Assembly (NCBI GenBank): GCA_030650025.1
Contig: JAUSEN010000016.1
Location: 9,428-73,427, forward strand
Reading direction: 5' to 3'
DNA from: Candidatus Magasanikiibacteriota bacterium
GTDB taxonomy: Bacteria; Patescibacteriota; Patescibacteriia; Magasanikbacterales; GWA2-37-8
Length of the DNA: 64,000 bases
Shown in pieces: positions 19,464 to 63,784 of this stretch. Each line of letters opens with the position of its first letter. Positions within the stretch are counted from its first letter, which is position 1. Both the position numbers and the translations under genes were made by a program. The notes under the pieces were generated by a model, which worked only from the letters and a program-made list of their open reading frames with translations, did not search any database and had not been told where the DNA came from.

Positions 19464-19481
19464 TTGTGAGTAGCGCTTTAT

Positions 19482-19886: not shown

Positions 19887-19888
19887 GT

Positions 19889-20419: not shown

Positions 20420-20451
20420 AAATGAAAAAATTATTTTAAATAGTAAAGGGT

Positions 20452-20958: not shown

Positions 20959-20962
20959 ATCG

Positions 20963-21052
20963 CGATTGCGCCGCGCTTCAAAGGACCCGCCCGCCTCGCT
21001 ACGCGAAGCGTTGCGGGCAGGCACTGCGCGGCACGATTTTGTTAAATCGCAT
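20963..21052 (+). promoter_or_regulatory. conserved structured 5' leader (variant B) ending in palindrome CGATTTTgttAAATCG + CATATG
   Basis: Shares gccgcgcttcaaagg...cactgcgcggca(c/t)gattt with leaders at 9278-9343 and 22911-22961; contains a nested GC palindrome homologous to 54606-54645. Confidence 0.55.
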
Positions 21053-21526: not shown

Positions 21527-21554
21527 TTTAAGAAATAGAAAAGAGAGAAATTTT

Positions 21555-21590
21555 GATTTAAAAAAATGGCTCCCGAGAGTGGGAGCTTTT
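21555..21590. terminator. bidirectional intrinsic terminator (gctccc-gagagt-gggagc between A and T tracts)
   Basis: aaaaaaatggctcccgagagtgggagcttttttat. Confidence 0.6.
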
Positions 21591-21607
21591 TTATCAAGAT
21601 AACTAAA

Positions 21608-22315
21608 ATGCAGATTTCAGTAATTATACCAGCCTACAACGAAGAAAAAACTCTAGCCAAAACGCTGGAGTCTTTAATAAAGCAAACCACCGATCGCGCG
21701 TTTGAAGTGATTGTCGTAAATAACGCCTCGACGGATAAAACGAGAGTAGTCGCCGAGTTTTTTTTAGATAAATTAGATTTAAAAATAATAGACGAGCCGA
21801 ATAAAGGGCGCGGGGCGGCGCGAGCCGCCGGGTGCGCGTCTGCCGCCGGAGAAATTTTTTTATCAACGGACGCGGATACGATTTTGCCTAGCAATTGGAT
21901 TGATGTTTTGATAAAGCCAGTTCATTCCGGGGTGGTTGGCGTGACTGGTACCGCGAAAATAGAGGATTGTTCATTTTTTGTTAATATTTTTTTCAAACTT
22001 TTTCAACCGGCGTTAACTAAAATTTCGCGGTGGTTACTTGGCTATTATTGGCTGGCTGGTTTTAGCTCGAGCGTGACGAGGGGTGCGTACGAGAAAGCGG
22101 GCGGTTTTGACAAAGCGCTCAATTCTTTAGAAGATACGGACCTAGCGAGAAGAGTTTCTCGGCAGGGCAAAATTGTGTGTGTTTGGAATTGTCCGGTAGT
22201 CTTTTCTGGCCGGCGATTTAAAAAGGGGGTGTTGCGCGGGCTGTTATCGTACCTGCCGCCGTTTATTATGTTTTTGTTTAAGTCGCGGCGTGTTAATTTA
22301 TCAGATATTCGCTAG
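21608..22315 (+). CDS. family 2 glycosyltransferase
   Basis: MQISVIIPAYNEEKTL...VIVVNNASTDKT...DADT: GT2 signature. Confidence 0.75.
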   Translation: MQISVIIPAYNEEKTLAKTLESLIKQTTDRAFEVIVVNNASTDKTRVVAEFFLDKLDLKIIDEPNKGRGAARAAGCASAAGEIFLSTDADTILPSNWIDVLIKPVHSGVVGVTGTAKIEDCSFFVNIFFKLFQPALTKISRWLLGYYWLAGFSSSVTRGAYEKAGGFDKALNSLEDTDLARRVSRQGKIVCVWNCPVVFSGRRFKKGVLRGLLSYLPPFIMFLFKSRRVNLSDIR

Positions 22316-22506
22316 TATAAACCCTGCACCACAAGGGTGCAGGGCACCCTGAACTCTTGTAGTTCAGGGTGAACCGTAAAATGTAAGTTGATGATTAAAA
22401 TAGTTGGGTGCCCAATGGGAATTGTCTCCCTACGGGAGATCCCCCGTAGGGGGAAACCCATTTTGTACCAACTATAAAAAAAGTCGGATTGTTTATTATT
22501 GAATTG

Positions 22507-22580
22507 GGGTGCCCAATGGGAATTGAACCCATATTGTCGGTACCACAAACCGACGTAATAACCATTATACCATGGGCACC
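22507..22580 (-). tRNA. tRNA-His(GUG)
   Basis: Reverse complement folds as acceptor ggtgccc/gggcacc, anticodon stem tcggt/accga with loop ttGTGgt, T arm gggttcaattccc. Confidence 0.7.
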
Positions 22581-22638
22581 ATGAGTAAAATCCGCTCTAG
22601 TATAGCGCCAAAATTGCTTTTAGTCAATGTGAGGGAGT

Positions 22639-22712
22639 GTCTCCTCGAGAGGAATCGAACCTCTATACTTAGCTTAGAAGGCTAATGCTCTATCCATTGA
22701 GCTACGAGGAGA
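22639..22712 (-). tRNA. tRNA-Arg(UCU)
   Basis: Reverse complement: acceptor tctcctc/gaggaga, D arm gtagctcaatggatagagc, anticodon stem ttagc/gctaa with loop ctTCTaa, T arm gaggttcgattcctc. Confidence 0.75.
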
Positions 22713-22910
22713 AAAAATAGCTTATCCCGCCACAGCGGGACCCCGCCTCGCGGCGGTGGGAAGGCTACTGTTTTATCCGCTCCGACGCCCCGCTTTGCGG
22801 GGGTCGGAGCCCCGACTTTACGTCGGGGTTAAACTATGGGATCAAGTGGCTCTATGGTAATCAATTTGGCCTTAAAAATCAAGTTATGGTATAATTTAAG
22901 AGTAACTAAT

Positions 22911-22961
22911 ATTTGCGCCGCGCTTCAGAGGACGTTGCGCGGCATGATTTCGTCAAATCAT
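22911..22961 (+). promoter_or_regulatory. conserved structured 5' leader (variant C) with palindrome TGATTTcgtcAAATCA + CATATG, preceded by an extended -10 (tggtataat at ~22888)
   Basis: ttgcgccgcgcttcagaggacgttgcgcggcatgatttcgtcaaatcatATG. Confidence 0.55.
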
Positions 22962-23324
22962 ATGTACAAGAAGATAAAAGTACTGTCGACTGTTTTTATA
23001 ACTTTTTTGGTTACTTGGCCAATGACAGCCCTGGCGCAATATGGTTTGAACGAAGCGGCCGGGAAAATGGGGTTTGATAGAAGCAAGAATGTTTACGGAG
23101 TGATTAGCCTCGTGGTGGGGGCAGCGTTGGCGTTTACCGGACTAGTGTTTTTTGGAATGATGATGTACGCTGGTGTGCGCTGGATGACCGCGCGCGGCAA
23201 CGAAGATTTGGCAGAGAAGGCCAAACAAGCCCTCGCGAATTCTACGATTGGTTTTGTAATCGTGGCGCTTTCTTACGCCCTGACGCGGTTTGTGTTTGGA
23301 GCGCTTAATTTGCCGACATTTTAA
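22962..23324 (+). CDS. pilin-module paralog 11 (start moved to ATG 22962: MYKKIKVLSTVFITFLVTWPMTALA)
   Basis: C-terminal MYAGVRWMTARGNEDLAEKAKQALANSTIGFVIVALSYALTRFV; the track ORF starts upstream inside the leader. Confidence 0.6.
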   Translation: MYKKIKVLSTVFITFLVTWPMTALAQYGLNEAAGKMGFDRSKNVYGVISLVVGAALAFTGLVFFGMMMYAGVRWMTARGNEDLAEKAKQALANSTIGFVIVALSYALTRFVFGALNLPTF

Positions 23325-23492
23325 GTAGGGGTATGGTATATCATGCCCCTGGCTGTTGCTTGACAGAAATTCGGATTTAAGGTAGGCTGAAGCTATTATT
23401 TATCCTCGTCTAGACGAGCTTTTAAGCGCCAGACAAGGACCGGACGGCTTTGGGGGCATGCCCTGGGCTCGCTCGGTGAGAAATACGCATGT

Positions 23493-23858
23493 ATGTTAGA
23501 CAACAAAAAGAAGCAGGCAGTTATTAAAAAATATCAGACCCACGCCGGGGACACTGGCAGTAGCGAAGTGCAAATAGCGATTCTGTCCGCTGAAATTGAT
23601 GAATTGATTGGGCACTTAAAATTACATCCTAAAGATCATTCTTCCCGCCGCGGCCTGTTACGCAAAGTCTCTAGCCGCCGCAGTTTACTTCGATTTTTGA
23701 AAAAAGAAGATACCAAGAGTTACGATAATTTAATTAAAAAGTTAAAGCTTAAAGCGGCGCGCAATTTGGTAAAACCCGGCGCGACCGGAGTGGCCGCTGA
23801 AGAAGAGATAGTGGAAGAAGAATTGGCGGAGGAACCCCATGAGGAACATGCCAGTTAA
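23493..23858 (+). CDS. rpsO: 30S ribosomal protein S15 with acidic C-terminal extension
   Basis: [58 protein letters not shown] is the S15 core; about 35 extra acidic residues ([19 protein letters not shown]) at the C-terminus. Confidence 0.85.
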
Positions 23859-24432
23859 AACTACTCACCCCTTAAAACACCCCGACCAACGTGTTGGCGT
23901 GTTTATTGATGTGCAAAATATGTATTATAGCGCGCGGAATTTGTTCCACGCCAAGGTTAATTTTGGAAATATTGTTAAAGAGGCCACGGCGGGCCGCAAA
24001 TTGATTCGCGCGATCGCTTACGTGGTGCGCACCGAGAGCAAAGAAGAACAGCCTTTTTTTGACGCCCTATATAACTTAGGAATAGAAACGCGCGAGAAGC
24101 CGCTCCAGATTTTTTGGGGGGGAGAAAAGAAGGCGGATTGGGATGTGGGGCTCGCGGTAGATGCCATTCGGCTCGCCCCAATGGTGGACGCGATTGTAAT
24201 CGTGTCAGGGGACGGGGACTACGTTCCGTTGATGGAATATTTGCGTAATCAGGGTAAACAAGTAGAAGTGGCGGCGTTTGGCGAGACTACCTCGAGCAAG
24301 CTAATTGAGTCGGTCGATGATTTTATGGATTTGAGCGCCGAAAAAGGCAAATTTTTGATCGGCGATAGAAAACTAGCCACACGTCTATTCCGGCCGAATC
24401 CAAAGATGCCAGCGCCGGTGATTAAAAAATAA
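23839..24432 (+). CDS. NYN/LabA-like domain protein
   Basis: [12 protein letters not shown]...[12 protein letters not shown]...[13 protein letters not shown] matches NYN ribonuclease-like domains. The start overlaps the rpsO 3' end. Confidence 0.7.
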
Positions 24433-24546
24433 CTGTCATTCCGACGACGAAGCCTGCCCGACACGCTGACGCGAGTCATGCGGGCGAGGAGGAATCTCTG
24501 TCCGATTGACGAGAGAGATCTCTCCTGCGTCGTCGAGATGACAACA
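24433..24546. repeat. structured ~115-bp intergenic repeat, copy 2
   Basis: See copy 1 (15013-15136). It begins immediately after the NYN stop codon. Confidence 0.65.
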
Positions 24547-26847: not shown

Positions 26848-26965
26848 AAAGATTGATGTTTAATTTGTTGTAGAGATGCCCCAGTAGAGACGCCCCAGCG
26901 GGGCGTCTCTACGTTATCTGGCGGTTGATTTTCTGGTTTAATTATGGTTAAATAGCGCGGCAATT

Positions 26966-27047: not shown

Positions 27048-27235
27048 CAAACACACAAGATACGAGTTCGAGTCCCCGCCCGAAACGCCTCCGGCGTAGC
27101 CGGGGCGGGCGGGTCTCCCGCGGCACAAAAGCAATATATTGTCTAAGCACGAATAAATTGCTATAATAGACACAGGGTGCGCCAAGCGCGCTCATGTTAA
27201 TTCGCGATCTCTTTTAGAATATAAACAAATAGAAT

Positions 27236-30529: not shown

Positions 30530-32310
30530 GGTGCGTACCGCAAAAAGGTCGTTTTTTACGACCGCCACGTCCCCTGCACCAGAACGCTTCGCGTCCGGTT
30601 CAGGGCTTCGCAGTCTAGCTCTGGCTACTAGCGAAGCGCCACTCGGGACCTCTAGAAAATTGCGTAGCTTACACAAAAAACGATGTATATTGCTACAAAA
30701 TTTACTCGAGTTACTCCAAGTGGTTAAAAACCCCACCCATTTTATTGGGCCGCTTGGAAAAGCGGCTTTTATTATTTTGGTCGGCTCAGATCGGTGAGAC
30801 AGAGATTTCTCCCCGCTCTAGGCGGGTCGAAATGACAGTGCAGAGTGGACTGGCTGGTACTTTGACAATTCAGGCAAGCACCATGCACCACCATAAACCA
30901 CAAGGGTTTATGGCAAACAAGGGTGCATGGCTAAATAACCATGAACCACAAGGGTTCATGGCAAGATTAATGCTTATTTTAAACATCAAGGTCTGGTGTT
31001 TAAAATAATAAAGGGTAACTTCATAAACATGAATATTGTCATGAAAAATTATGAAGTCAACTCAACGTAAGCACCATTTGGTGTTTTCGTTGTGTGCAAT
31101 TTCAACAAGAGCATATGGTGGATGCCTAGACACTAAAAGATGAAGAAGGACGTTGCAAGGTGCGATAAGCCTCGGGGAGCTCCTAAGCAAGCTGTGATCC
31201 GGGGATTTCCGAATGGGGAAACCCGTTACAAAGAAATTTGTAACATCGTATACTGAATTCATAGGTGTACGAGGAAGACCTGGCGAAGTGAAACATCTCA
31301 GTAGCCAGAGGAAAATAAATCGAAGAGATTCCCTTAGTAGTGGCGAGCGAAAAGGGATCAGCCTAAACCTTATACATGTTGTTGCCGTAACAGATTGATC
31401 GCAAGGTTAATTATGAGCGGCAGTTTAAAGACGCAGGTCGTTGTGTATATGGTGTAATAAGACAATTACGCGTCCGCCCTGCGGCGGACGGTGAAAATGT
31501 GACTTTCCTAGTAGAACGCTCTGGAACGAGCGGCCGCAGAGGGTAAGAGCCCCGTACGCGAAAGGAGTCTATATAATCATGGTAGTTGTTCTTGAGTAGG
31601 GCGGAACTCGTGAAATTCCGTCTGAATTCGGGCCGACTATGGTCTAAGGCTAAATACTTTTAGTGATCGATAGTGGACTAGTACCACGAGGGAAAGGTGA
31701 AAAGTAGCCCGGTGAGGGCGATGAAATAGTATCTGAAACCATATGTTTACAAAGAGCGGAAGACCGGAGTACCCAGAATTATTCCCCCCTACGGGGGGAA
31801 TAATTCTGGGTCCTGGTCGACCGTGTTCCTATTGAAGAATGAGCCTGCGAGTGTGCTGTATGTCGTTGCTTAAACCCTTCTGGGGTGGAGGCATAGCGAA
31901 AGCGAGTCTTAACGGGCGTATATAATGGCATGCACATAACCCGAAACCGGGTGAGCTATCCATGACCAGGATGAACCCTTCCGAAAGGAAGGGGGAGGTC
32001 CGAACACACGAGCCGTGCAACACTCGGTGATGAGTTGTGGATGGGAGAGAAATTCTAATCGAACTCGGTGATAGCTGGTTCTCCTTGAAATAGTTTTAGG
32101 ACTAGCCTCGCGCGTTCCCTTTGGCGGTAGAGCACTGGATGAGACTCGGGTCCTTCGGGATACCAGTTTCAATCAAACTCCGAATGCCGAAGATTAAAAG
32201 CGCGGGAGTCAGACTGTGGGGGCTAAGCTCCATAGTCAAAAGGGAAACAGCCCTGATCGCCAGCTAAGGTCCCTAAATCCATATTAAGTGTGAAAGGTGG
32301 TGTTAACTCT

Positions 32311-32348
<38 letters not shown>

Positions 32349-33172
32349 TAAAGAAAGCGTAACAGCTCACTGGTCAAGAGTTTTCGCGCCGAAAATGTAC
32401 CGGGGCTAAATATGGTACCGAAGCTGCGAATTGGTAGATCCTCCGGGATTTACCTCTGGTAAAGGAGCGTTGGTAGCTGCGCTGAAGCCATAGCCGCGAG
32501 GCGTGGTGGAGTGCTACCAAGTGAGAATGCAGGCATGAGTAACAATAAGGGAAGTGAGAATCTTCCCCGCCGAAAATCCAAGGTTTCCTGGGCAACGAGA
32601 CTCGACCCAGGGTTAGTCGATCCTAAGGCCAGGCCGAAAGGCGTAACCGATGGAAGAGCAGGTTAATATTCCTGCACTTGGTATAGTTTGTTTGTTAGTG
32701 CGCATAGTGAAGCTGACAGCGTGTTTTGAATATACACGTTTCTTTACCCCGACGTGAAGTCGGGGCAGGGACGAAGATGAAGCCTTCGGGTGGAGTCAAC
32801 TGTCGGGGACGCTGTGCCTAGAAAAGCTAATAAACGTTAAGCTATATCAAACCGTACCGTAAACCGACACAGGTAGGTGAGTCGAGAAGACTAAGGCGTA
32901 CGAGAGAACCCTCTTTTAGGAACTCTGCAATACAGCGGCCGTAACTTAGGGATAAGGCCCGCCCCGATGTAAAAATCGGGGTTACAACAAAAGACGCACT
33001 GCGACTGTTTACCAAAAACACAGCTCCCTGCAAAAGCGCAAGCTGAAGTATAGGGAGTGATGCCTGGCCAGTGTCAGAACGTTAAGGCGAGAGGTTATCC
33101 GGTCATCCGACCGGAGAAGCCTTGAACTGAAGCGCTGATGAACGCCGGCGGTAACTATAACCGTCCTAAGGT

Positions 33173-33408
33173 AGCGGACTTGAGAAATCGAGCACGCTAG
33201 GATTGGGACGGATATAGCAAAAAGTAAACAATCATTAAAGATGAGCAGAGTCATCGAAATATTAACAGCCATTCAAAAAATGCTACCTTGCTTTGCAGTA
33301 ATGCAAAGAATAATCCGGTCATAGCTTATGAGAGACTATACGCTATGCTCCTCCGACGAAACTCGGAGGAAGAAGATTTAGTCCTTCGTCATTAAACAGG
33401 AAACGAAG
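33173..33408 (+). mobile_element. group I-like intron (ORF-less), inserted after the U of GGU|AGCG (E. coli ~L1931, helix 69/70 region)
   Basis: The conserved ccgtcctaaggt.agcgaaattccttgtcgg is interrupted by 236 nt; the 5' exon ends in U and the insert ends in G. Confidence 0.6.
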
Positions 33409-33430
33409 AGCGAAATTCCTTGTCGGGTAA

Positions 33431-33682
33431 ACCAAGAACTTGCCCCCTGGTCGAGTAATTGACCTTGAAGCAATAGCTGTATCGGTGGAACCCATAAAAA
33501 ATCGTGCAGATTAATTATGGGCAATACCGAGGGAAGTCCTCCCAAAATGGAGTGACCCCGTAGAGACTACACGCTGTCTCCCGAGTTATTCGGGATGAAG
33601 ATATAGTCCGATCCTGCCGAGTAATTGGCAGCCCTACGAAAATCAAAAATCTAAAATCATAAATCGAAAATTCGTAGATGGA
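33431..33682 (+). mobile_element. second 23S insertion (~252 nt) within GGGUAA|GUUCCGACC (E. coli ~L1951-1953); intron-like, ORF-less
   Basis: Conserved flanks gggtaa and gttccgacctgcacgaatgg are contiguous in E. coli; boundaries are uncertain by 1-2 nt. Confidence 0.55.
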
Positions 33683-34208
33683 GTTCCGACCTGCACGAAT
33701 GGCATAACGATAGTGCGACTGTCTCAAAGAGGGACTCGGTGAAATTGCAAGGAAGGTGAAGATGCCTTCTACCCGCAACTAGACGAAAAGACCCCGTGAA
33801 GCTTTACTACAGCTTGCTATTGGTATACGTGCACGTATGTTGAGCGTAGGTGGGACCCGCAAGGGGCCAATGAGACACCACCCTTATGTATATGTATGCC
33901 TAATCTCTGCCCGTGAATCCGGGGAGGGAGACAGTGGCTGGCGGGTAGTTTATCTGGGGCGGATGCCTCCTAAAATGTAACGGAGGCGTTTACAAAGGTA
34001 GGCTTAGCGCGGATGGAAATCGCGCTGGACGTGCAAACGCAAAAGCCTGCTTTACTGCAAGGGCTACAACCCGCGCAGTTGCGAAAGCAGAAGTTAGTGA
34101 ACCGACCATCCTATATAGGAAGGTGGAAGATCAACGGATAAAAGCTACTCCGGGGATAACAGGCTGATCGCGCCCAATAGTCCACATAGACGGCGCGGTT
34201 TGGCACCT

Positions 34209-34573
34209 TAAATTATCGGGGTGCATACAAAGTGATTTGTTTCCAAGTTTTTTCGTCTAAAACAATTATGTTAAGATAGAAATAGAGATTTAAATCGGCT
34301 TATAACGGTGAACCCGTCATCCCGCCTAAGGCGGGATCGGCAATACCGTGGGAAGTCGCCCATTAACTGTGGGTTGACCCCGTAACGACTGACCCGAAAG
34401 GGGAGACTCGGTTACAGTTAGTAATCGGGTAATACGCCGACTCTTATATTAATCAAACTGAGATCATGCGACTCACGCCCCGAGCAAGTCCCGAAAGGGA
34501 CAAGTCGAGGGGTCCGCTAACATCCAGTATAAGAAGAAGATATAGTCTGCCCCATACGAAAGTATGGAATCAT
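34209..34573 (+). mobile_element. third 23S insertion (~365 nt) in the peptidyl-transferase-centre strand GGCACC|U(A)CGAUGUCGG (E. coli ~L2500); intron-like, ORF-less
   Basis: tttggcacc ... tacgatgtcggctcatc flanks; no long ORF inside. Confidence 0.55.
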
Positions 34574-34636
34574 GTACGATGTCGGCTCATCGCATCCTGG
34601 GGGTGAAGAAGCTCCCAAGGGTTTGGCTGTTCGCCA

Positions 34637-34688
<52 letters not shown>

Positions 34689-35124
34689 CTATCTGTTGCG
34701 GGCGCAGAATGTTGCAAAGACTCTTCCCTAGTACGAGAGGACCGGGAAGAATAAACCTCTGGTGTGCGAGTTGTTCCGTCAGGAGCATTGCTCGGTAGCT
34801 ACGTTTAGCACGGATAAACGCTGAAAGCATCTAAGCGTGAAGCCGTCTTTAAGATTAACATTCGTTATAGACCCCTTGTAGATTACGAGGTTGATAGGCT
34901 CTACGTGTAAGCACAGTAATGTGTTGAGCGGAGGAGTACTAATCGGTCGAGCGCACAACGAAAGCATTAAGTGGTGCTCACCTCTTCGGTGAGTCTACGA
35001 GTTATGTTTGCCATGTCATTCGACATGGCCTTGCCTGAATTTAGTCATTGTAGTAAACTATTTTGAAAATTCCCCCGCCAAAAGCGGGATCAGCTCGCTA
35101 ACGCGAGCCGAAAAAAGAACTAAT

Positions 35125-35236
35125 GTCTTGGTGGCTTTAAGCGAAGGGGTCACACCCGATCCCATCCCGAACTCGGCAGTTAAGCCCTTCTGCGCTGATG
35201 ATAGCCCAAGTGGCAAAAGTAGGCCGCCGCCAGGAC
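35125..35236 (+). rRNA. 5S rRNA
   Basis: cccgatcccatcccgaactcggcagttaagc matches the 5S loop B/C consensus (cf. E. coli cccacctgaccccatgccgaactcagaagtgaaac); terminal helix gtcttggtggc / gccgccaggac. Confidence 0.8.
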
Positions 35237-38676: not shown

Positions 38677-38735
38677 AAATAAAATGATATTGTATCTGTA
38701 GGGGCGGGGTTACCCCGCCCCTACGTTGTATATTT

Positions 38736-49197: not shown

Positions 49198-50397
49198 ATG
49201 AATCTGTACGAATTTGAGGGAAAAAATTTATTGGCTAAACATGGAATTAAAACGCCGCGAGGCGTGGTGGTTCGGCGTGGGGATGATTTTGTTAGTAAGT
49301 ATAATGAATTAGTGAAATTGGGAATTAAAGACGTGGTGGTGAAGGCCCAAGTTTTGAGCGGTAAGCGTGGTAAAAATAATGGGATTAAATTTTGTGATAA
49401 TGGCGAGGAGGTAAAAAAGGCATGTGAGGAATTATTTACTTTAAATATTCGAGGGCAGTATGTGGCGGCTATATTAATTGAAGAAAAATTAGCCATTGCG
49501 GAAGAACATTATATTTCGATTGTTTATGATACTAACAAAAAACAGCCGTGTTTAATTTATAGTAAACAGGGAGGGATGGATATTGAGGATGTGGCAGAGG
49601 AGAAGATTGAGAAAGTGTGGTTGGATATTAGGGAAGAAAATGTCGTTGGCGTAGAGACGTTGCACGCAACGTCTCTACCGATTGATGAATTATGGAAATT
49701 ATTTTTAAACGAAGATACCCGGCAAGTAGAAATTAATCCGCTCGTGAAAACCAAATCTGGCGAATGGGTCGCGGCGGACGCAAAAATCGCGATTGATGAT
49801 GATGCTTTTTTTAGACACCCCTCGGCAAGCTCGGGGCCTTCGGTAACTGATTGGACCAAATTTGAGCCGCGGACAATGCTGGGGCGCCTGCCGACAAGCC
49901 GGGAAATTGCCGTCAAGAAAATTGATGAAGGCGAAAAATATTACCAAGGCACAGCCGGGAAGTATATTGAGCTCGACGGTGATATCGCGATGATTTTAAA
50001 CGGGGGTGGAGCGAGTATCGCCAATATGGACGCCCTAGCTCAAGTGGGACTCAAAGCTGCTAATTACACGGAATATTCCGGTAATCCACCGAGAGAAAAA
50101 GTCGCGGCGTTGGCGCGCATTGTACTATCTAAACCTGGTCTCAAGGGCCTTTGGATGTGTGGGGTAGTAGCCAATTTTACTAACATTAAAGAAACGTTTT
50201 TAGGGATTTGCGATGCCCTCGATGAAATTAAGCCGACTTACCCAATTGTCGTCCGGCGCGACGGCACGGAGAGTGCCGCGGGGTTCGCATTATTAGAAGA
50301 ATGCGCCAAGCGTAATAATTTGAATATTAAAATGTTTAAAAAGGAAACCGGCATGAGTGCCACGGCGCAAATTTTGGCGGAGATGATAGAAAAATAA
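49198..50397 (+). CDS. SucC-like ATP-grasp subunit (succinyl-CoA synthetase beta / citryl-CoA synthetase large subunit-like)
   Basis: MNLYEFEGKNLLAKHGI... ATP-grasp N-domain and the ...DGDIAMILNGGGASIANMD ligase-CoA motif. Confidence 0.7.
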   Translation: MNLYEFEGKNLLAKHGIKTPRGVVVRRGDDFVSKYNELVKLGIKDVVVKAQVLSGKRGKNNGIKFCDNGEEVKKACEELFTLNIRGQYVAAILIEEKLAIAEEHYISIVYDTNKKQPCLIYSKQGGMDIEDVAEEKIEKVWLDIREENVVGVETLHATSLPIDELWKLFLNEDTRQVEINPLVKTKSGEWVAADAKIAIDDDAFFRHPSASSGPSVTDWTKFEPRTMLGRLPTSREIAVKKIDEGEKYYQGTAGKYIELDGDIAMILNGGGASIANMDALAQVGLKAANYTEYSGNPPREKVAALARIVLSKPGLKGLWMCGVVANFTNIKETFLGICDALDEIKPTYPIVVRRDGTESAAGFALLEECAKRNNLNIKMFKKETGMSATAQILAEMIEK

Positions 50398-54191: not shown

Positions 54192-55277
54192 ATGCAATAC
54201 CAAATTTTAGAAGTAAACCCAGTTTCCGGTTATGAATTGTTAGATTCGGGTGATGGCGAAAAATTAGAGCGCTATGGCGATGTTGTAGTTGTACGGCCAG
54301 ACCCACAGGCCTTATGGCGCAAGAAGCTGCCGGAGAGCGAGTGGCAAAAAGCCAACGCTTATTTTAAACCCCGCATCACCATAAACCACAAGGGTTTATG
54401 GCAAACAAGGGTGCAGGGCGAGCGTGATAGTAAGAGCGCAGAGTGGCAGACGCGCAGCGAGATTCCAGCACGGTGGCCAATTGAATTTGGGGGTTTAAAG
54501 TTTTGGATTAAACTTTCGGCTTTTAAGCATACGGGGTTATTTCCGGAACAGCTTCCGAATTGGGTTTGGCTGCAAGAAAAAATACGATTGGCGAGACCCC
54601 ACCCCCGCCCGACTTCGCTACGGCGAAGCCGTTGCGGGCGGGCTGCCCTCCCCTTTGCGAAGGGGATGGGAAGCGATACCCCCTCTGTCGCAACGGAGGG
54701 GGAAGGGGGAGGACTGGCGCGCGTTTTAAATTTATTTGGCTATACCGGTGGGGCGACGCTCGCTTGCGCGCAGGCTGGCGCCAGTGTTGTCCATGTGGAT
54801 GCTAGCAAGTCCGCCATTGGATGGGGGAGGGATAACGCGGTGCTTTCCGGCTTAGATAAAAAACCAATTCGTTGGATACTAGACGATGCCGCGACGTTTG
54901 TGCGTCGCGAAATTAAGCGCGGCAACAAATATGATGGCATCATTATGGATCCGCCGGCTTTTGGACACGGACCTAACCGAGAACTTTGGAAAATAGAAGA
55001 TCATTTTTTACCGCTTCTTGAGGATTGTAAAAAAATATTAAGCAGAGAGCCTCTGTTTTTTTTGGTGAATGGCTATGCCTCGGGGTATTCGGCCGTGGCT
55101 TATGAAAATAGTTTAGGTGATTTGTTAAAACACACCCCCCGGCCCCCTCTTGTTAGAGGGGGAGGCGAAAAAGATAATCTAGGAAATATAGAAATTGGTG
55201 AATTGACGATTGCCGAGAGCGGGAGTGGCAGAATTTTGCCAGCTGGTATTTTCGCGCGCTGGAGCGCCCCGCAGTAA
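54192..55277 (+). CDS. RlmI/RlmK-like SAM-dependent rRNA methyltransferase carrying in-frame palindromic insertions
   Basis: NLFGYTGGATLACAQAGA...VDASKSAI (motif I) and DPPAFG (motif IV). GC-rich low-complexity inserts at 54377-54418, 54593-54718 and 55131-55168. Confidence 0.65.
   Translation: MQYQILEVNPVSGYELLDSGDGEKLERYGDVVVVRPDPQALWRKKLPESEWQKANAYFKPRITINHKGLWQTRVQGERDSKSAEWQTRSEIPARWPIEFGGLKFWIKLSAFKHTGLFPEQLPNWVWLQEKIRLARPHPRPTSLRRSRCGRAALPFAKGMGSDTPSVATEGEGGGLARVLNLFGYTGGATLACAQAGASVVHVDASKSAIGWGRDNAVLSGLDKKPIRWILDDAATFVRREIKRGNKYDGIIMDPPAFGHGPNRELWKIEDHFLPLLEDCKKILSREPLFFLVNGYASGYSAVAYENSLGDLLKHTPRPPLVRGGGEKDNLGNIEIGELTIAESGSGRILPAGIFARWSAPQ
54593..54718. repeat. nested GC-rich palindromic mini-element (in-frame inside CDS)
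   Basis: gagaccccaccc...ccctcccctttgcgaagggga.gggaa...ccccctc.gtcgcaacggagggggaagggggagg; related to 61947-62033 and 20985-21020. Confidence 0.65.
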
Positions 55278-57116: not shown

Positions 57117-57155
57117 CGTCCCGACGTACGTCGGGACATGATTTCGTAAAATCAT
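57117..57155 (+). promoter_or_regulatory. leader module: hairpin gtcccgac-gta-cgtcgggac + palindrome TGATTTcgtaAAATCA abutting the start codon
   Basis: Ends at CATATG 57153-57158. Confidence 0.55.
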
Positions 57156-58304
57156 ATGCGAAAGCTTAAGTTTTTGGGGGCAATGGCAGCAGGTTTGGCG
57201 CTTTTCGGCGCCGGGTGTTCTTTTACTCCGCCAGGAGAGAAGTCTGTTACAGAGGGTAGCTATGTCCCTAAAACAGCTGATACTAGCCCAATTAAAATTG
57301 GTTGGGTGGGGCCTTTGACAGGGGACGCGGCGAGTGTTGGTAAAGACGCGTTGACAGCGGCGCAGTTGGCAGTGGAGGAAGTGAATGCCGCGGGCGGCAT
57401 TAACGGGCGAATGCTTGAACTTGTGGCCGAAGACGGCAAATGTAATCCTAAAGACGCGGCTACGGCAGGGAATAAGCTTATTAATGTAGACAAAGTCCCG
57501 GCGATTGTGGGGACGGCGTGTTCAGGCGAGATGATGGCAATTGCGCCAACTGCCGAACAGAATAAAACAATTATGGTGGGTTACTGCGCTTCGGCTCCGA
57601 CGGTCAGCGCGGCGGGTGATTATATCTTTCGCACGTATCCGTCCGATGTTCTGCAATCCAAATTTGTCGCTGAATATGTTTATAATACTCTTGGCAAGAA
57701 GAAAGTGGCCACGCTTGCCGTCCTCGGCGATTGGGGGACTGGCCTTAAGAACGGCTTTGAACAGCGCTTTAAAGAATTAGGCGGAGAAGTTGTTTCTTCT
57801 CAAGACTATGTGCAGGAAAGTCGCGATTTACGCACACAGTTGACTAAAGCCAAGGACAGCCAGCCCGAGATTTTATTTTTTGTCGGATACACAGAAGCTT
57901 CGATTGCTGGTTTAAAACAAGCTAAAGAGCTCGGCCTTAATGTATCGATAATTGGCGGCGATGCCTGGGATGACACCAAGATTCATGCTAATTCTTTTGC
58001 CGAGGGCATTATGTACAGTGTCGGGGCCGCGCCCCAGTATGACCTGGCCTGGGTAGAAAAATTAAAACAGAAGGGCGCTACCACCAATGTCTGCGTGCCT
58101 CGTTCGTATGACAACGTCAAACTCCTGGCAGAAATTATGAAACGGACTGGGACGGACACTGCTAAAATTAAAGACGAGCTGTACAAGGTGCAAGGTTATC
58201 AAGGAATTGGTGGCATAGTAAATATGGACAGCAACGGTGACAATACTTCTGCCCAGTTCCAAATTAAAGTAGTTAAGAACGGCAAAGCCGAAGCGGCAAA
58301 ATAA
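57156..58304 (+). CDS. branched-chain amino acid ABC transporter substrate-binding lipoprotein (LivJ/LivK family)
   Basis: Lipobox FGAGCS; IKIGWVGPLTGDAASVGKD...INGRMLELVAEDGKC. Confidence 0.8.
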   Translation: MRKLKFLGAMAAGLALFGAGCSFTPPGEKSVTEGSYVPKTADTSPIKIGWVGPLTGDAASVGKDALTAAQLAVEEVNAAGGINGRMLELVAEDGKCNPKDAATAGNKLINVDKVPAIVGTACSGEMMAIAPTAEQNKTIMVGYCASAPTVSAAGDYIFRTYPSDVLQSKFVAEYVYNTLGKKKVATLAVLGDWGTGLKNGFEQRFKELGGEVVSSQDYVQESRDLRTQLTKAKDSQPEILFFVGYTEASIAGLKQAKELGLNVSIIGGDAWDDTKIHANSFAEGIMYSVGAAPQYDLAWVEKLKQKGATTNVCVPRSYDNVKLLAEIMKRTGTDTAKIKDELYKVQGYQGIGGIVNMDSNGDNTSAQFQIKVVKNGKAEAAK

Positions 58305-60156: not shown

Positions 60157-60228
60157 CACAGATTACCTGCCCGCAATGCTTCGCATAGCGAGGCGGGCGG
60201 GCGCAGATTCATTTGGATTAAACAGATT

Positions 60229-61744: not shown

Positions 61745-63085
61745 ATGCTTAAACAAATTGTTGACTTACACGTACACTCAAAATACTCGCGCGCTTGTTC
61801 GCCGCAGTTGGATCTGCCGAATATCGCCGCGGCTTGTAATAAGAAAGGGATAGATATTATCGCGACGGGCGATTTTACGCACCCGGCCTGGTTTAAACGC
61901 CTCGAAGAAAATTTGGAAGAAACGAGTGAAGGGGTGTATGAATTGCGAGACCCCACCCTCGCCCTCCCCTTTGCGAAGGGGAGGGAAATTGTCGCCCCCC
62001 TCCTTAGCAAAGGAGGGGGTAGGGGGAGGTCTCACGTACGTTTTGTGCTCGGGACGGAAATTTCTTGCATTTATTCTCATAAAGACAAGACCCGCCGCCT
62101 GCATTTGTTAATTTTTGCGCCTAATTTAGAGGCAGTAAGAAAATTTAATGCCGAGTTAGAGAAGAGAGGGGTGAATTTAAAGGCTGATGGGCGGCCGATA
62201 ATGGGTTTGAGCGGTAAAGAGATTGTGCAGATTTGTTTAGATATAGATAAAAATATGTGGGTGGTGCCGGCCCATGCCTGGACACCGTGGTTTGCGGTAT
62301 TTGGGTCTAAATCTGGGTATGATTCGCTGGAAGAATGTTTTGAAGAGTTAACGCCACATATTACCGCCATTGAAACTGGCTTGTCGAGCGATCCTACTAT
62401 GAATCGCCGGTTGTCTAGGCTTGATAATATTACTCTCATTTCTAATTCGGACGCTCATAGTTTGGAAAAGTTAGGCCGAGAGGCGAATATTTTGCAGTTT
62501 AATGATGAGGAGAGTCTCACGTATGCAGAATTAAAGAGAATTATTACCACCGGGGACAGAAAAAAATTTTTAAACACGATAGAATTTTATCCGGAAGAGG
62601 GAAAATATTATGCTGATGGCCATGCGGATTGCAAAATTAGCCTGACACCAGAAGAGGCCATAACCAATAAATTAAAATGCCCTAAGTGCCAGCGCCCACT
62701 AACAGTAGGCGTCTTGCACCGTGTAGTAGCGCTCGCCGATAGAGATGAGAAGGAAATACCCAAAAACAAGTTTATTCCGCACCAATACGCGGTGCCATTA
62801 CTCGAAATTATCGCGGGAGCGTTTAGGGTGGGAGTGGCCAGTAAAAAAGTAAGAGCGGAATATGAGAGTTTAATAAAAAAATTGGGCGCAGAATTTGATA
62901 TCTTGTTGAATATTCCGATTGATAAGATTGAGGGGGCGGTAAGTAATAAAAACATCGCGTTCGGCATACAGAATATGCGGGCGGGGAAGGTAGCGGTAAA
63001 ACCAGGGTACGATGGTATTTTTGGCGTGGTTGACGTGTTCTCTGACAAAAAATATCATCGGCCGGTGCAGACTAGCCTGCTTTAG
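61745..63085 (+). CDS. PHP-domain protein (TIGR00375-like; possibly endonuclease-Q-like) with 29-codon in-frame palindromic insertion
   Basis: VDLHVHSKYS...GDFTHP PHP motifs and CPKC zinc-finger-like motif; insert PTLALPFAKGREIVAPLLSKGGGRGRSHV encoded by 61947-62033. Confidence 0.6.
   Translation: MLKQIVDLHVHSKYSRACSPQLDLPNIAAACNKKGIDIIATGDFTHPAWFKRLEENLEETSEGVYELRDPTLALPFAKGREIVAPLLSKGGGRGRSHVRFVLGTEISCIYSHKDKTRRLHLLIFAPNLEAVRKFNAELEKRGVNLKADGRPIMGLSGKEIVQICLDIDKNMWVVPAHAWTPWFAVFGSKSGYDSLEECFEELTPHITAIETGLSSDPTMNRRLSRLDNITLISNSDAHSLEKLGREANILQFNDEESLTYAELKRIITTGDRKKFLNTIEFYPEEGKYYADGHADCKISLTPEEAITNKLKCPKCQRPLTVGVLHRVVALADRDEKEIPKNKFIPHQYAVPLLEIIAGAFRVGVASKKVRAEYESLIKKLGAEFDILLNIPIDKIEGAVSNKNIAFGIQNMRAGKVAVKPGYDGIFGVVDVFSDKKYHRPVQTSLL
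61947..62033. repeat. GC-rich palindromic mini-element with terminal inverted repeats gagacc/ggtctc, 87 bp, in-frame in CDS
   Basis: gagaccccaccctcgccctcccctttgcgaaggggagggaaattgtcgcccccctccttagcaaaggagggggtagggggaggtctc. Confidence 0.7.
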
Positions 63086-63465: not shown

Positions 63466-63538
63466 GTGTCTCCATGAGGAATTGAACCTCAATTACAGGC
63501 TTCGGAGGCCTGTGTTTTATCCGTTAAACTATGGAGAC
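63466..63538 (-). tRNA. tRNA-Arg(CCG)
   Basis: Reverse complement: acceptor gtctcca/tggagac, D stem gttt/aaac, anticodon stem caggc/gcctg with loop ctCCGaa, T arm tgaggttcaattcctca. Confidence 0.8.
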
Positions 63539-63784
63539 CTTATTTAAAAAATCCCTAATCTGTTGTCGCAGTAATCTTTTGCCTTCTGTCGTTTTTAAAA
63601 ATTTTTCTCTCCTTTCTGCATCGGATTTTTCTAGGTAGCATTCATAATGAACTAACATTGGCATTTTATTTTTAGTCGAAGCAACTCTATCCTGTTTATG
63701 TTGGTTCACACGTTTAGCCAAGTCAGCAGTTGACCCTTTGTATAAATCGCCATTTTTTAATAATAGAATATATGTATAATACAT
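63524..63784 (-). CDS. GIY-YIG nuclease-family small protein
   Basis: YYTYILLLKNGDLYKGSTADLAKRVNQH matches GIY-x10-YIG. The 3' end overlaps tRNA-Arg by ~15 nt, so the true C-terminus may be shorter. Confidence 0.7.
   Translation of the reverse strand: MYYTYILLLKNGDLYKGSTADLAKRVNQHKQDRVASTKNKMPMLVHYECYLEKSDAERREKFLKTTEGKRLLRQQIRDFLNKVSIV

What the first reader, a model, noticed from the sequence alone, without database searches (positions are those of the whole stretch)
61947..62033. Precisely delimited 87-bp element with terminal inverted repeats (gagacc...ggtctc) adding 29 codons to a PHP-domain protein
The element gagaccccaccctcgccctcccctttgcgaaggggagggaaattgtcgcccccctccttagcaaaggagggggtagggggaggtctc has perfect terminal inverted repeats, two internal hairpins, and a length divisible by 3. 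It shares its first ~25 nt and its hairpin cores with the element at 54593-54718, which additionally carries a nested insertion; the family therefore grows by insertion into itself. It lies between PHP motif blocks.
Basis: seen in the sequence. Interest (0 to 1): 0.6.

Follow-up and report, generated by a model that had tools for sequence, protein, structure and literature searches.

The report
In-frame palindromic repeat in EndoQ gene
An 87-base hairpin-forming repeat element sits in frame inside a DNA-repair gene (endonuclease Q) of a candidate-phyla-radiation bacterium and is most likely translated as a floppy surface loop; the same loop has picked up such elements many separate times in related bacteria.

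Summary
Window 61947-62033 is an 87-nt, 66% GC quasi-palindrome. It has an outer stem (GAGACC…GGTCTC) and two 10-bp inner hairpins. It lies in frame (29 codons) in an endonuclease Q (EndoQ) gene of a Candidatus Magasanikbacteria MAG.

The closest syntenic relative and 62 of 120 orthologs have a short, empty 7-residue loop at this position. Another 36 carry different hairpin-derived inserts in the same loop, and parsimony gives at least 22 gain/loss events.

A second copy sits in frame in an rRNA-methyltransferase-like gene at 54593-54716. It contains a nested 39-nt hairpin of a different family, which has three free-standing copies in the window.

A covariance model finds further in-frame copies in other candidate-phyla-radiation (CPR) housekeeping genes (pseudouridine synthase, TGT, and ORFs that look like LigA, RsmI and RarA), and intergenic copies just after stop codons.

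All 17 intragenic copies keep one reading frame open, so they are read through. AlphaFold places the insert as a disordered tip of a β-hairpin on an otherwise confident EndoQ fold.

The best reading is a selfish REP/RPE-like palindromic repeat that is tolerated only in loops. It is a new member of a known kind. How it moves is unknown.

The parts
61947..62033 (+). Element e1: 87-nt family-A composite palindrome, 29 in-frame codons of EndoQ
   Evidence: Sequence. Fold -56.6 kcal/mol, z = -4.7. Best hit of covariance model R1 at 89.7 bits. 78% identical to its own reverse complement.
61947..61959 (+). e1 left arm (GAGACCCCACCCT), 5' half of the outer stem / TIR
   Evidence: MFE structure. The same 12-mer occurs at 54593. 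A GAGACCYCWCCC terminus was used as the query that returned at least 120 metagenome stretches.
61962..61985 (+). e1 inner hairpin 1, CCCTCCCCTT-TGCG-AAGGGGAGGG (10-bp stem)
   Evidence: Identical over 22 nt with 54645-54666.
61986..61995 (+). e1 A/T-richer spacer (AAATTGTCGC)
   Evidence: Unpaired in the MFE fold. A spacer of 9-13 nt is present in related copies.
61996..62019 (+). e1 inner hairpin 2, CCCCCTCCTT-AGCA-AAGGAGGGGG (10-bp stem)
   Evidence: Compensatory changes relative to the e2 hairpin and other copies.
62021..62033 (+). e1 right arm (AGGGGGAGGTCTC), 3' half of the outer stem / TIR
   Evidence: 21/23 identity with the e2 3' end.
61745..63085 (+). Host gene: endonuclease Q family protein (446 aa), identical to an NCBI protein from a Candidatus Magasanikbacteria MAG
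   Evidence: TIGR00375 3e-51. PDB 5zb8/7k30 E about 1e-54. P0001 is 100% identical. AF2 model pLDDT 89.5, TM 0.90 to 5zb8.
54593..54716 (+). Element e2: second family-A copy, in frame in a class I SAM methyltransferase (RlmI-like), with a nested family-B hairpin
   Evidence: R1 hit at 51.7 bits. Absent from about 290-aa orthologs and from L135.
54604..54642 (+). Nested 39-nt family-B hairpin inside e2 (boundaries ±4 nt because of sequence overlap)
   Evidence: Absent from e1 and from the same-site copy in L008. Family B has free-standing copies.
54192..55277 (+). Host gene of e2: SAM-dependent methyltransferase, 361 aa versus about 291 aa typical; carries three separate hairpin inserts
   Evidence: PF10672. 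Alignment to 119 homologs. +18, +35 and +14 aa versus L135.
54369..54422 (+). First methyltransferase insert: family-D hairpin (CCATAAACCACAAGGGTTTATGG), 18 codons
   Evidence: (D8/D16). Intergenic copies at 22318, 30887 and 30935.
55128..55181 (+). Third methyltransferase insert: single C-run/G-run hairpin CCCCCTCTTGTTAGAGGGGG (…PPLVRGGG…)
   Evidence: Weak R1 hit.
20986..21021 (+). Free-standing family-B hairpin inserted in the loop of a 5'-leader hairpin; the paralogous leader at 22913-22964 is empty
   Evidence: (I1, D6, D14).
60166..60201 (-). Free-standing family-B hairpin, intergenic, opposite orientation
   Evidence: (I1, 94% complementary to 20986-21021). The corresponding genes in L135 are separated by 1 nt.
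27070..27117 (+). Family-B-like hairpin with GAGTC…GGTCTC ends, downstream of tRNA-Leu
49651..49678 (+). Family-C hairpin GTAGAGACGTTGCACGCAACGTCTCTAC, in frame (VETLHATSL) in an ATP-citrate-lyase-like ATP-grasp gene
   Evidence: The L008 ortholog has a different element at the same site. Intergenic family-C copies at 26884-26912 and 38698-38724.

Best explanation
e1 is a copy of a small, non-autonomous, hairpin-forming repeat of the REP/REPIN/RPE type. It is a quasi-palindrome made of a C-rich/G-rich outer stem that encloses two inverted REP-like hairpins.

It entered the EndoQ gene of this Magasanikbacteria lineage at the tip of a β-hairpin in the PHP domain. It is transcribed and translated with the gene as about 29 Pro/Gly/Leu/Arg-rich residues, which form a disordered surface loop.

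Its stems are C-runs paired with G-runs, so most reading frames lack stop codons. Insertions of this kind survive when the net length change is a multiple of three and the site is a loop.

The same few loops are therefore hit again and again in different CPR lineages, by this family and by unrelated hairpin families. Occupied elements in turn receive further hairpins, which is how the nested copy e2 arose. In intergenic DNA the same family sits just after stop codons.

**Shown:**
- the element's anatomy;
- multiple copies in unlinked genes;
- empty orthologous sites;
- scattered phylogenetic distribution;
- frame preservation;
- loop location;
- hairpins maintained by compensatory changes.

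**Inferred:**
- translation (no proteomic data);
- selfish rather than useful status;
- selection, not targeting, as the cause of the hot spot.

**Unknown:** the enzyme and the mode of copying. A trans-acting HUH/Y1 (RAYT/TIRYT-like) or other ssDNA-hairpin enzyme is a guess.
For: **Anatomy and significance.**

**Multi-copy and dispersed.**
- e2 lies in an unrelated gene 7.3 kb away.
- Copies in a second Magasanikbacteria genome lie in three further loci.
- R1 hits fall inside the pseudouridine synthase gene (L009) and the TGT gene (L013). Further hits fall inside ORFs whose sequences look like LigA (L097), RsmI (L117) and RarA (L075).

**Empty sites.**
- 62 of 120 EndoQ homologs have a 7-aa loop.
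- The closest, syntenic relative L135 (74% aa identity) is empty at all four sites. It has no R1 hit in 18.8 kb.

**Independent events.**
- 36 of 120 homologs carry inserts of at least 15 aa. These form 26 separate groups on the tree.
- Fitch parsimony places 'empty' at the root and needs at least 22 changes.
- The e1-like element of P0045/P0086 sits inside a clade of empty loops, far from P0001.

**DNA/structure is conserved, not the peptide.**
- e1 and the L011 copy share 77% nt identity but are read partly in different frames.
- Host 4-fold degenerate sites are saturated, at 0.28-0.40 identity.

**Hairpins are maintained.**
- 90.6% of cells are paired.
- 9 of 19 pairs show double changes, reached by 1 of 500 shuffles.
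- The covariation score is 0.365, against 0.289 in shuffles (0 of 500) and at most 0.293 in slid controls.

**Read through.** All 17 intragenic copies, which were located by DNA pattern or covariance-model search or as inserts in aligned orthologs, keep a single ORF open on both sides. e1 is stop-free in 4 of 6 frames and e2 in 5 of 6.

**Loop location.**
- AF2 gives pLDDT below 50 only for residues 76-94, between strands 64-67 and 99-112.
- The rest of the model has mean pLDDT 89.5 and TM 0.90 to PfuEndoQ.

**Precedent.** In-frame RPEs and intragenic REP dimers encoding 20-30 aa, often in repair genes, are documented (PMC10969869; PMC3733652).
Against: - No transposase or RAYT-like gene was found in the window or in about 1 Mb of fetched loci. 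This is a weak test, run with query sequences recalled from memory.
- No target-site duplication is seen, and no nucleotide-level filled/empty pair is available. The nearest relative is only 74% identical in protein.
- Copies within one genome are no more alike (about 75-80%) than copies in different genomes. There is therefore no sign of recent bursts.
- That level of conservation, set against saturated host synonymous sites, could instead mean the structure is under selection for a function.
- e2 and the L008 copy share their right junction next to V-L-N-L-F. That fits either common descent with loss in L135, or site-specific insertion.
- Translation is inferred only from frame conservation.
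Confidence: 0.7

Rival explanations
1. The hairpin structure itself is functional at the RNA or DNA level and is kept by selection. Possible roles are an mRNA stabiliser or processing site, a translational pause for co-translational folding, a recombination or replication signal, or a G-quadruplex/i-motif. This does not exclude a mobile origin.
For: - Compensatory changes keep the stems, while the encoded peptide shifts frame between homologous copies.
- Element identity of 74-80% persists although host synonymous sites are saturated.
- Intergenic copies sit immediately after stop codons, as REPs do.
- e1's first 39 nt match an element in a Chthonomonadaceae MAG at 36/39.
Against: - The closest relative, and most orthologs, do without the element at every site.
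- The same loop hosts unrelated element families in different genomes, so no specific sequence is needed there.
- No T-tract follows e1, so it is not an intrinsic terminator here.
- No Rfam family matches above threshold.
- The low-complexity C/G composition inflates identity; the baseline between sub-families is already 0.6-0.69.
- Template-switch repair of quasi-palindromes could maintain the stems without selection (own knowledge).
Confidence: 0.15
2. The insert is an old, vertically inherited loop expansion of EndoQ that has been lost or has diverged in other lineages. It is not a mobile element.
For: - P0045/P0086 carry a recognisably related sequence in the same loop.
- e2 and the L008 copy share the same gene site and right junction.
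Against: - The same sequence family occurs in unrelated genes and in intergenic DNA.
- Insert-bearing proteins are scattered in 26 groups with 'empty' at the root.
- P0001's nearest relatives are empty.
- A neutral loop would not keep 22-nt exact identity with a copy in another gene.
Confidence: 0.05
3. The palindrome arose locally by template switching, snap-back synthesis or slippage at the loop codons, and grew in place. Similar sequences elsewhere are convergent products of the same mutational process.
For: - e1 is 78% identical to its own reverse complement and can fold as one long hairpin of -55.7 kcal/mol.
- C-run/G-run hairpins of this style occur in many phyla.
Against: Convergence does not explain the following:
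- identical non-palindromic parts, such as the loop TGCG and the 12-nt left end, shared between e1 and e2;
- the spacer AAAT(T/C)GTC and the 3' GGAGGGGGTAGNGGGAGGTC shared with L011.
Confidence: 0.05
4. The element is not translated. It is either skipped by ribosomal bypassing, as with T4 gene 60 or the mitochondrial 'byp' elements, or it is excised from the mRNA or the protein.
For: A very stable hairpin lies inside an ORF. GC-rich mobile hairpins that are bypassed are known in yeast mitochondria (own knowledge).
Against: - All 17 intragenic copies preserve the frame and lack stops. By chance this would be (1/3)^17 for frame alone.
- No matching take-off and landing codons are present: CGA before the element, CAC/GTA after it.
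- No intron family is detected.
- 29 aa is far too short for an intein.
Confidence: 0.03

Closest known systems
Rickettsia palindromic elements (RPE; Ogata et al. 2000, as summarised in PMC10969869 and PMC3733652)
   Same: - Short palindromic repeats in multiple copies.
- Found both between genes and in frame inside housekeeping genes.
- The host proteins are thought to stay functional because the extra peptide lies where the fold tolerates it.
- No transposase is known.
- The host is a reduced-genome bacterium.
   Different: - The host phylum differs (Patescibacteria/CPR).
- e1 is shorter: 87 nt against about 100-150.
- Within RPE families the peptide is conserved; here the homologous copies are read in different frames.
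- The termini are GAGACC/GGTCTC rather than the CGTC tag reported for RPE-4/-6.
REP / REPIN elements, including intragenic REPs (Di Nocera et al. 2013, PMC3733652)
   Same: - 20-40-nt imperfect GC-rich hairpins.
- Often arranged as inverted doublets that fold into a larger hairpin.
- Located just downstream of ORFs.
- A minority lie inside genes, notably replication and repair genes, where dimers encode 20-30 aa. e1 encodes 29.
- They can nest inside other palindromes.
   Different: - Family A has no unpaired GTAG or CGTC tag.
- No RAYT was found.
- In the CPR contigs examined, most copies are intragenic rather than extragenic.
- The window's family-C hairpins do begin GTAG…CTAC, but there the tag is paired.
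Bacterial MITEs (Correia/NEMIS, ERIC, RUP, Nezha)
   Same: Size range of 70-300 bp, terminal inverted repeats, no coding capacity of their own, strong secondary structure, and occasional in-frame fusions.
   Different: No target-site duplication is seen at five copies. No parent IS with matching TIRs was seen. The 'TIR' here is simply the base of a palindrome.
Mitochondrial GC clusters and 'byp' elements of yeasts (own knowledge, not checked here)
   Same: GC-rich mobile hairpins in an AT-richer genome that land inside protein-coding genes.
   Different: Byps are skipped by the ribosome and need not keep the frame. The CPR copies always keep the frame.

Membership tests
RPE (Rickettsia palindromic elements) | Palindromic repeat present in several copies per genome | tested here: met
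   Two family-A copies in 64 kb. At least three in a second Magasanikbacteria genome.
RPE (Rickettsia palindromic elements) | In-frame insertion in ORFs of known function, compatible with the fold (surface location) | tested here: met
   17 of 17 intragenic copies keep the frame. The insert is the only internal low-pLDDT stretch, at a β-hairpin tip.
RPE (Rickettsia palindromic elements) | Sequence homology to RPE-1…10, or the CGTC terminal tag of RPE-4/-6 | tested here: not met
   No CGTC at either end of e1, e2, L008mt or L097. No RPE sequences were available for direct alignment, so homology itself was not tested.
RPE (Rickettsia palindromic elements) | Conserved encoded peptide within a family | tested here: not met
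   e1 reads LALPFAKGREIVAPLLSKGG whereas L011 reads SPPLKKGGKIVPPLFKEG, from 77%-identical DNA. e1 and e2 enter the element in different frames.
REP / REPIN | 20-40-nt imperfect palindrome units, commonly as inverted doublets forming a larger hairpin | tested here: met
   Two 24-nt hairpins. e1 is 78% self-reverse-complementary. The long-hairpin fold is -55.7 against the three-way fold at -56.6 kcal/mol.
REP / REPIN | Unpaired GTAG (or CGTC) tetranucleotide at one end | tested here: not met
   Family-A ends are GAGACC/GGTCTC, and they are paired.
REP / REPIN | Cognate RAYT (Y1/HUH transposase) gene flanked by the repeats | tested here: inconclusive
   tblastn with recalled RAYT and IS608 TnpA sequences found nothing in the window plus about 1 Mb of loci. 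Whole genomes were not available.
REP / REPIN | Predominantly extragenic, close to the 3' ends of ORFs | tested here: inconclusive
   Low-GC intergenic copies do sit 1-30 nt after ORF ends. However, in the CPR contigs with gene context, every R1 hit was intragenic.
MITE | Terminal inverted repeats | tested here: met
   GAGACC…GGTCTC is perfect, and there are 12 pairs with one bulge.
MITE | Target-site duplication flanking the element | tested here: not met
   Flanks are TTGC/ACGT (e1), AAGC/GTCC (L008), AGGC/TTAA (L007) and AGGC/GGAA (L097). Only e2 has TGGC on both sides.
MITE | Parent IS with the same TIRs encoding a transposase | not tested
   Would need whole-genome or collection-wide searches for TIR-flanked ORFs.
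Translational bypass / intron / intein | The element need not preserve frame or be stop-free; take-off/landing codons or splice motifs are present | tested here: not met
   Frame is preserved in 17 of 17. No matching codons. No Rfam intron hit at this site.
Endonuclease Q (host protein) | TIGR00375/PF27218 sequence family and the PHP + Zn-finger + helical fold of PfuEndoQ | tested here: met
   Metal-ligand motifs (D7, H9, H11, …) are invariant in the alignment. The TIGR00375 score of 174.9 is below its equivalog cut-off of 326.6.

The most novel reading that the evidence does not exclude
The GAGACCCCACCC-tagged C-run/G-run hairpin could be one pan-bacterial superfamily of mobile elements that has not been described.

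- The query GAGACCYCWCCC…CCTCCCCTT returned at least 120 metagenome stretches. They range from GC 0.31 to 0.69, and the un-queried 3' half of the hairpin is present in them.
- e1's first 39 nt match a copy in an Armatimonadota MAG at 36/39.

On this reading the superfamily would be copied by a still unidentified trans-acting enzyme that recognises the GAGAC foot of an ssDNA hairpin. It would be actively targeted to particular sites. The recurrent hits in the same protein loops and RNA-hairpin loops of CPR genomes would then reflect targeting and would work as a generator of loop diversity, not merely as survivorship of random insertions.
Probability: 0.15. Interest if true: 0.75.

Novelty: new member of a known kind. 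Interest (0 to 1): 0.55.

Why it matters
In-frame palindromic repeats have been the textbook oddity of Rickettsia, with scattered REP cases in Proteobacteria. This result shows the same phenomenon in CPR/Patescibacteria housekeeping genes: EndoQ, an rRNA-methyltransferase-like enzyme, pseudouridine synthase and TGT, plus ORFs that look like LigA, RsmI and RarA.

It also gives an unusually clear natural experiment. One 7-residue β-hairpin tip of EndoQ has been invaded at least about 20 separate times, by several unrelated hairpin families.

Three practical consequences follow:
- These inserts explain many odd Pro/Gly-rich 'low-complexity' stretches and length outliers in CPR proteins. They can mislead alignments, domain calls and phylogenies.
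- They mark positions where proteins tolerate 20-45 extra residues, which is useful for protein engineering.
- The conserved termini give a handle for finding the unknown copying enzyme of transposase-less REP-like elements, which is a long-standing open question.

Tried and rejected
- **Rfam.** At gathering thresholds and at E ≤ 1, only far-sub-threshold hits to generic miRNA hairpin models were found, so no known RNA family matches.
- **Terminator scan.** No T-tract follows the e1 hairpins.
- **Nucleotide-level empty site.** None could be obtained. The source protein is a singleton in the 15-billion-protein collection and the nearest homolog is about 70-74% identical.
- **Target-site duplication.** Not seen in the flank comparison.
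- **Y1/HUH transposase.** A tblastn search with recalled RAYT and IS608 TnpA sequences found nothing. This is a weak test.
- **Restriction-site avoidance.** GAGACC/GGTCTC and GAGAC counts match the Markov expectation, so the BsaI-like termini give no restriction-modification signal.
- **Phage vehicle.** Only 1 hit in IMG/VR.
- **Literature.** Searches by element sequence, and for CPR/Patescibacteria combined with palindromic, MITE or REP terms, found nothing relevant.
- **GGGGWSAS motif** of TIRYT-flanking TIRs (PMC3733652). The element's GGGGTCTC matches 7 of 8 positions only. This was kept as a lead, not as evidence.
- **Bypass, intron or intein reading.** Rejected on frame statistics.
- **Assembly artefact.** Rejected because related copies occur in independent assemblies from NCBI, ENA and JGI.
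Full report
**1. The observation**

- It has perfect 6-nt terminal inverted repeats, GAGACC…GGTCTC. These are the base of a 12-pair outer stem.
- Inside are two hairpins with 10-bp stems: CCCTCCCCTT-TGCG-AAGGGGAGGG at 61962-61985 and CCCCCTCCTT-AGCA-AAGGAGGGGG at 61996-62019. A 10-nt A/T-richer spacer separates them.
- As RNA the element folds at -56.6 kcal/mol, against -38.2 ± 3.9 for shuffles (z = -4.7, 0 of 200 fold as well).
- It is 66% GC in a region of about 42-45% GC.
- It is 78% identical to its own reverse complement. It can equally form one long hairpin at -55.7 kcal/mol. It is therefore a palindrome built of palindromes, which is the REPIN layout.
- The 87 nt are 29 codons in the frame of ORF 61745-63085.

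**2. The host gene**

The ORF is an endonuclease Q.
- It matches TIGR00375 at 3e-51 and PfuEndoQ structures 5zb8/7k30 at E about 1e-54.
- It is 100% identical to an NCBI protein named 'endonuclease Q family protein' from a Candidatus Magasanikbacteria MAG, on a 130-kb contig.
- The window also carries an unlinked 23S rRNA with a group I intron, as reported for many CPR bacteria (PMC7143001).
- The phmmer alignment to PfuEndoQ breaks at the insert. Query residues 68→112 correspond to Pfu residues 67→77.
- An AlphaFold2 model built on 97 homologs has mean pLDDT 89.5 and pTM 0.89. Its only internal stretch with pLDDT below 50 is residues 76-94, between strands 64-67 and 99-112.
- The model superposes on PfuEndoQ with TM 0.90. 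The insert is therefore a disordered excursion from a β-hairpin tip of the PHP domain, which spans residues 1-238 in Pfu (PMC5961232).

**3. It is an insertion, and the site is a hot spot**

The 120 best EndoQ homologs are all 57-70% identical to the query apart from the self-hit. The loop between the conserved L67 and F100 falls into three classes:

| Loop length | Homologs | Notes |
|---|---|---|
| 7-8 residues | 62 | consensus K-D-N-S-S-K-T |
| 9-14 residues | 22 | |
| 15-54 residues | 36 | insert-bearing |

- On a neighbour-joining tree made without the loop columns, the 36 insert-bearing proteins form 26 separate groups.
- Fitch parsimony puts 'empty' at the root and needs at least 22 changes.
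- P0001 groups with P0002-P0004, which lack the element.
- P0002 comes from contig L135. That contig has the same gene order as the window: methyltransferase, pseudouridine synthase, ABC transporter, EndoQ.
- L135 is empty at the EndoQ site and at all three insert sites of the methyltransferase. It has no hit to the element model in 18.8 kb.
- Codon by codon, the 29 element codons stand where L135 has the 8 codons ERKSLAKP. The net gain is 21-22 codons, not a clean +29.

**4. It is a dispersed family**

*The second copy, e2.*
- The 21-mer core of hairpin 1 occurs only twice in the window, with 0 expected by chance.
- The second copy (54593-54716) shares 17/18 nt at the 5' end, 22/22 in hairpin 1 and 21/23 at the 3' end.
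- It lies in frame in a class I SAM methyltransferase, PF10672 and RlmI-like. That protein is 361 aa, whereas orthologs are about 291 aa.

*The nested hairpin.*
- e2 carries an extra 39-nt hairpin, CCCGCCCG…CGGGCGGG. This belongs to another family with free-standing copies at 20986-21021, 60166-60201 (opposite strand) and, as a variant, 27070-27117.
- The copy at 20986 sits in the loop of a 5'-leader hairpin. The paralogous leader at 22913-22964 is empty.
- A second Magasanikbacteria genome (Baikal-deep-G194, GCA_009694865.1) has a family-A copy at the same methyltransferase site and in the same frame, without the nested hairpin (L008). This supports nesting, but by a different family, not 'insertion into itself'.

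*Other inserts in the same gene.* The methyltransferase has two further hairpin inserts, at 54369-54422 and 55128-55181. Both are absent from L135.

*Covariance-model search.*
- Model R1 was built from 12 copies.
- In the window it finds e1 (89.7 bits) and e2 (51.7 bits), plus one marginal hit at the third methyltransferase insert (17.9 bits, E 0.1).
- It finds new copies inside a pseudouridine synthase gene (L009, opposite orientation) and a tRNA-guanine transglycosylase gene (L013).
- It also hits copies inside long ORFs whose sequences look like a LigA zinc-finger tip (L097), RsmI (L117) and RarA (L075), and finds multiple copies in L057 and L066.

**5. Same architecture at the EndoQ hot spot in other genomes**

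DNA was fetched for six insert-bearing orthologs.
- L011, L010, L012, L013 and L009 all carry the same layout: an outer C-rich/G-rich stem, two inner hairpins and a 9-13-nt spacer.
- L011 (P0045) is clearly e1-like. It shares 77% nt identity, the same GACCCCACC start and the same GGAGGGGGTAGNGGGAGGTC end.
- L011 is nonetheless read partly in another frame: SPPLKKGGKIVPPLFKEG against LALPFAKGREIVAPLLSKGG.
- e1 and e2 also enter the element in different frames.
- Host 4-fold degenerate sites are saturated, at 0.28-0.40 identity. What is conserved is therefore the nucleic-acid sequence and structure, not the peptide.
- Across the 12 copies, 90.6% of stem cells pair and 9 of 19 pairs show changes on both sides (shuffles 4.7 ± 1.4, reached by 1 of 500). 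The covariation score of 0.365 exceeds all shuffles and all slid controls.
- The sixth ortholog, the EndoQ of Baikal-G194, carries a completely different element at this loop (…ILSEAKNL…SLRLRMT).
- Other orthologs have further types, such as DLSLTLSSAEAREAS and DSSLRVGMT…SFGMT.
- The same pattern holds for a third gene. The ATP-citrate-lyase-like gene of the window has GTAGAGACGTTGCACGCAACGTCTCTAC in frame (VETLHATSL). The L008 ortholog has an SEAKNL-type element at the same place.

**6. Translated or not**

- Seventeen intragenic copies were located by DNA pattern or covariance-model search, or as inserts in aligned orthologs. Every one lies in a single open frame that extends hundreds to thousands of nt on both sides.
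- If the elements were spliced or bypassed there would be no such constraint.
- e1 is stop-free in 4 of 6 frames and e2 in 5 of 6. This is a consequence of C-run/G-run stems. These stems encode Pro, Gly, Leu, Arg, Ser and Ala, a composition that suits a flexible loop.
- Low-GC copies that are not in genes begin 1-30 nt after an ORF end (L015, L116, L068), as REPs do.

**7. Distribution beyond CPR**

- The hairpin-1 21-mer occurs in 7 loci of the GTDB representative genomes. Two are in the Baikal Magasanikbacteria. The others are in Methylovirgula, Cellvibrionaceae, Chthonomonadaceae, Geomonas and a gammaproteobacterium.
- The Chthonomonadaceae copy matches e1's first 39 nt at 36/39.
The hits complete the hairpin, which was not part of the query.
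- Most of those hits are on GC 0.5-0.6 contigs with a tight consensus (AGTTAGAGACCCCACCCCnnnCCCCTCCCCTTGAAGGGAGGGGAG…). They look intergenic, and some form arrays (L080).
- Only one hit was found in viral contigs.

**8. Mechanism**

*Shown:* a structured repeat, multi-copy, present or absent among related genomes, nested, and restricted to protein loops, RNA-hairpin loops and gene ends.

*Inferred:* it spreads by copying. Only insertions that keep the frame and land in tolerant loops survive. This explains both the apparent 'divisible by three' rule and the hot spots.

*Not resolved:*
- No target-site duplication is seen.
- No transposase was found (a weak test).
- There is no evidence of recent bursts. 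Within-genome and between-genome identities are both about 75-80%.
- The GC|GAGACC left junction recurs in CPR copies, but it may be part of the element.
- e2 and the L008 copy share the right junction before V-L-N-L-F, yet differ by about 7 residues on the left. Common descent and site preference cannot be separated.
- Maintenance of the stems might reflect selection, or template-switch correction of quasi-palindromes.

**9. Comparison with known systems**

- It works like Rickettsia RPEs and like the intragenic REPs catalogued by Di Nocera et al. Those authors report REP dimers encoding 20-30 aa, often in repair genes, and CGTC-tagged families with no transposase (PMC3733652; PMC10969869).
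- It is not a member of those families by their defining tags. It has no GTAG or CGTC tag, and the encoded peptide is not conserved.
- It fails the MITE criterion of target-site duplication.
- No paper in the searchable library describes such elements in CPR/Patescibacteria.

**10. Verdict**

It is a new family, in a new host group, of a known kind of element. The noteworthy extras are the massively recurrent use of the same protein loops and the cross-phylum conservation of the element's termini.

Noticed in passing
window 31093-34959 and 35127-35235: The 23S rRNA gene spans 3867 nt against a 2925-position model. It contains a group I intron (33419-33631) and is followed by 5S rRNA. No 16S gene is adjacent, so the rRNA genes are unlinked and the 23S is expanded.
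   Followed up: no
window 31771-31811: A perfect 19-bp-stem hairpin (ACCCAGAATTATTCCCCCCTACGGGGGGAATAATTCTGGGT) lies inside the 23S rRNA gene. It may be another inserted hairpin or an expansion segment.
   Followed up: no
window 9274-9346, 20966-21055, 22913-22964, 57118-57158: A conserved 5'-leader motif ends at the ATG of four genes. It consists of the hairpin GCCGCGC…GCGCGGC followed by ATGATTTYGTYAAATCAT-ATG. The genes are two T4SS-pilin-like genes, one N-methyl pilin-like gene and one periplasmic binding protein. The loop of the first hairpin is empty at 22913, holds a family-B hairpin at 20986 and holds a different small hairpin at 9294-9314. This is a non-coding 'hot spot' parallel to the protein loops.
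   Followed up: partly
window ~15000-24500: A cluster of paralogous small genes shares a repeated segment (TGGATGACCGCGGGCGGCAACGAAGAAAA…, 8 copies). Two of the genes match PF18895 T4SS_pilin.
   Followed up: partly
window 22318-22347, 30887-30916, 30935-30964, 54375-54404: Family-D hairpin CCATAAACCACAAGGGTTTATGG has three intergenic copies, two of them just upstream of the 23S rRNA. A fourth copy is in frame in the methyltransferase (…ITINHKGLWQ…).
   Followed up: partly
window 26884-26912, 38698-38724, 49651-49678: Family-C hairpins begin GTAG and end CTAC (GTAGAGACG…CGTCTCTAC). Two are intergenic and one is in frame in an ATP-citrate-lyase-like gene (VETLHATSL). The same peptide motif appears in the methyltransferase homolog P0162, at that protein's first hot spot.
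   Followed up: partly
window 27062-27117: Directly after tRNA-Leu(tag) there is a tRNA T-arm-like string (GAGTTCGAGTCCCC). It runs into a family-B-like hairpin ending GGTCTC. It may be a tRNA-fragment or att-like remnant.
   Followed up: no
window 63524-63784 (- strand); also L008 6242-6541 and L009 12444-12719: A small stand-alone GIY-YIG nuclease gene (85-99 aa) is present in the window and in two other element-bearing CPR contigs. No link to the elements was tested.
   Followed up: no
L080 5277-6550 (metagenome contig Ga0256407_10000256): An array of nine GAGACCCCACCCC-tagged hairpins in alternating orientation at a spacing of about 110-220 nt, on a GC 0.59 contig. Many related metagenome contigs of GC 0.5-0.6 share a tight consensus, AGTTAGAGACCCCACCCCnnnCCCCTCCCCTTGAAGGGAGGGGAGCGGCTGCGCCGTCAT.
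   Followed up: no
L008 12339-12473: The EndoQ of the Baikal Magasanikbacteria genome carries, at the same loop, a 135-nt element of a different and widespread type (…CATTCTGAGTGAAGCGAAGAATC… / …SLRLRMT). Related 'DSSLR..GMT' peptides occur in P0039, P0047, P0062 and P0099.
   Followed up: partly
window 1-64000: GC skew is positive in every 2-kb bin, and almost all long ORFs are on the + strand. The whole window appears to lie on one replichore, with genes co-oriented with replication.
   Followed up: no
alignment A2 (12 family-A copies): In the stems, T·G (U·G) combinations outnumber C·A combinations by roughly 32 to 13, by hand count. This could point to constraint on one strand (RNA) or to strand-biased C→T mutation.
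   Followed up: no
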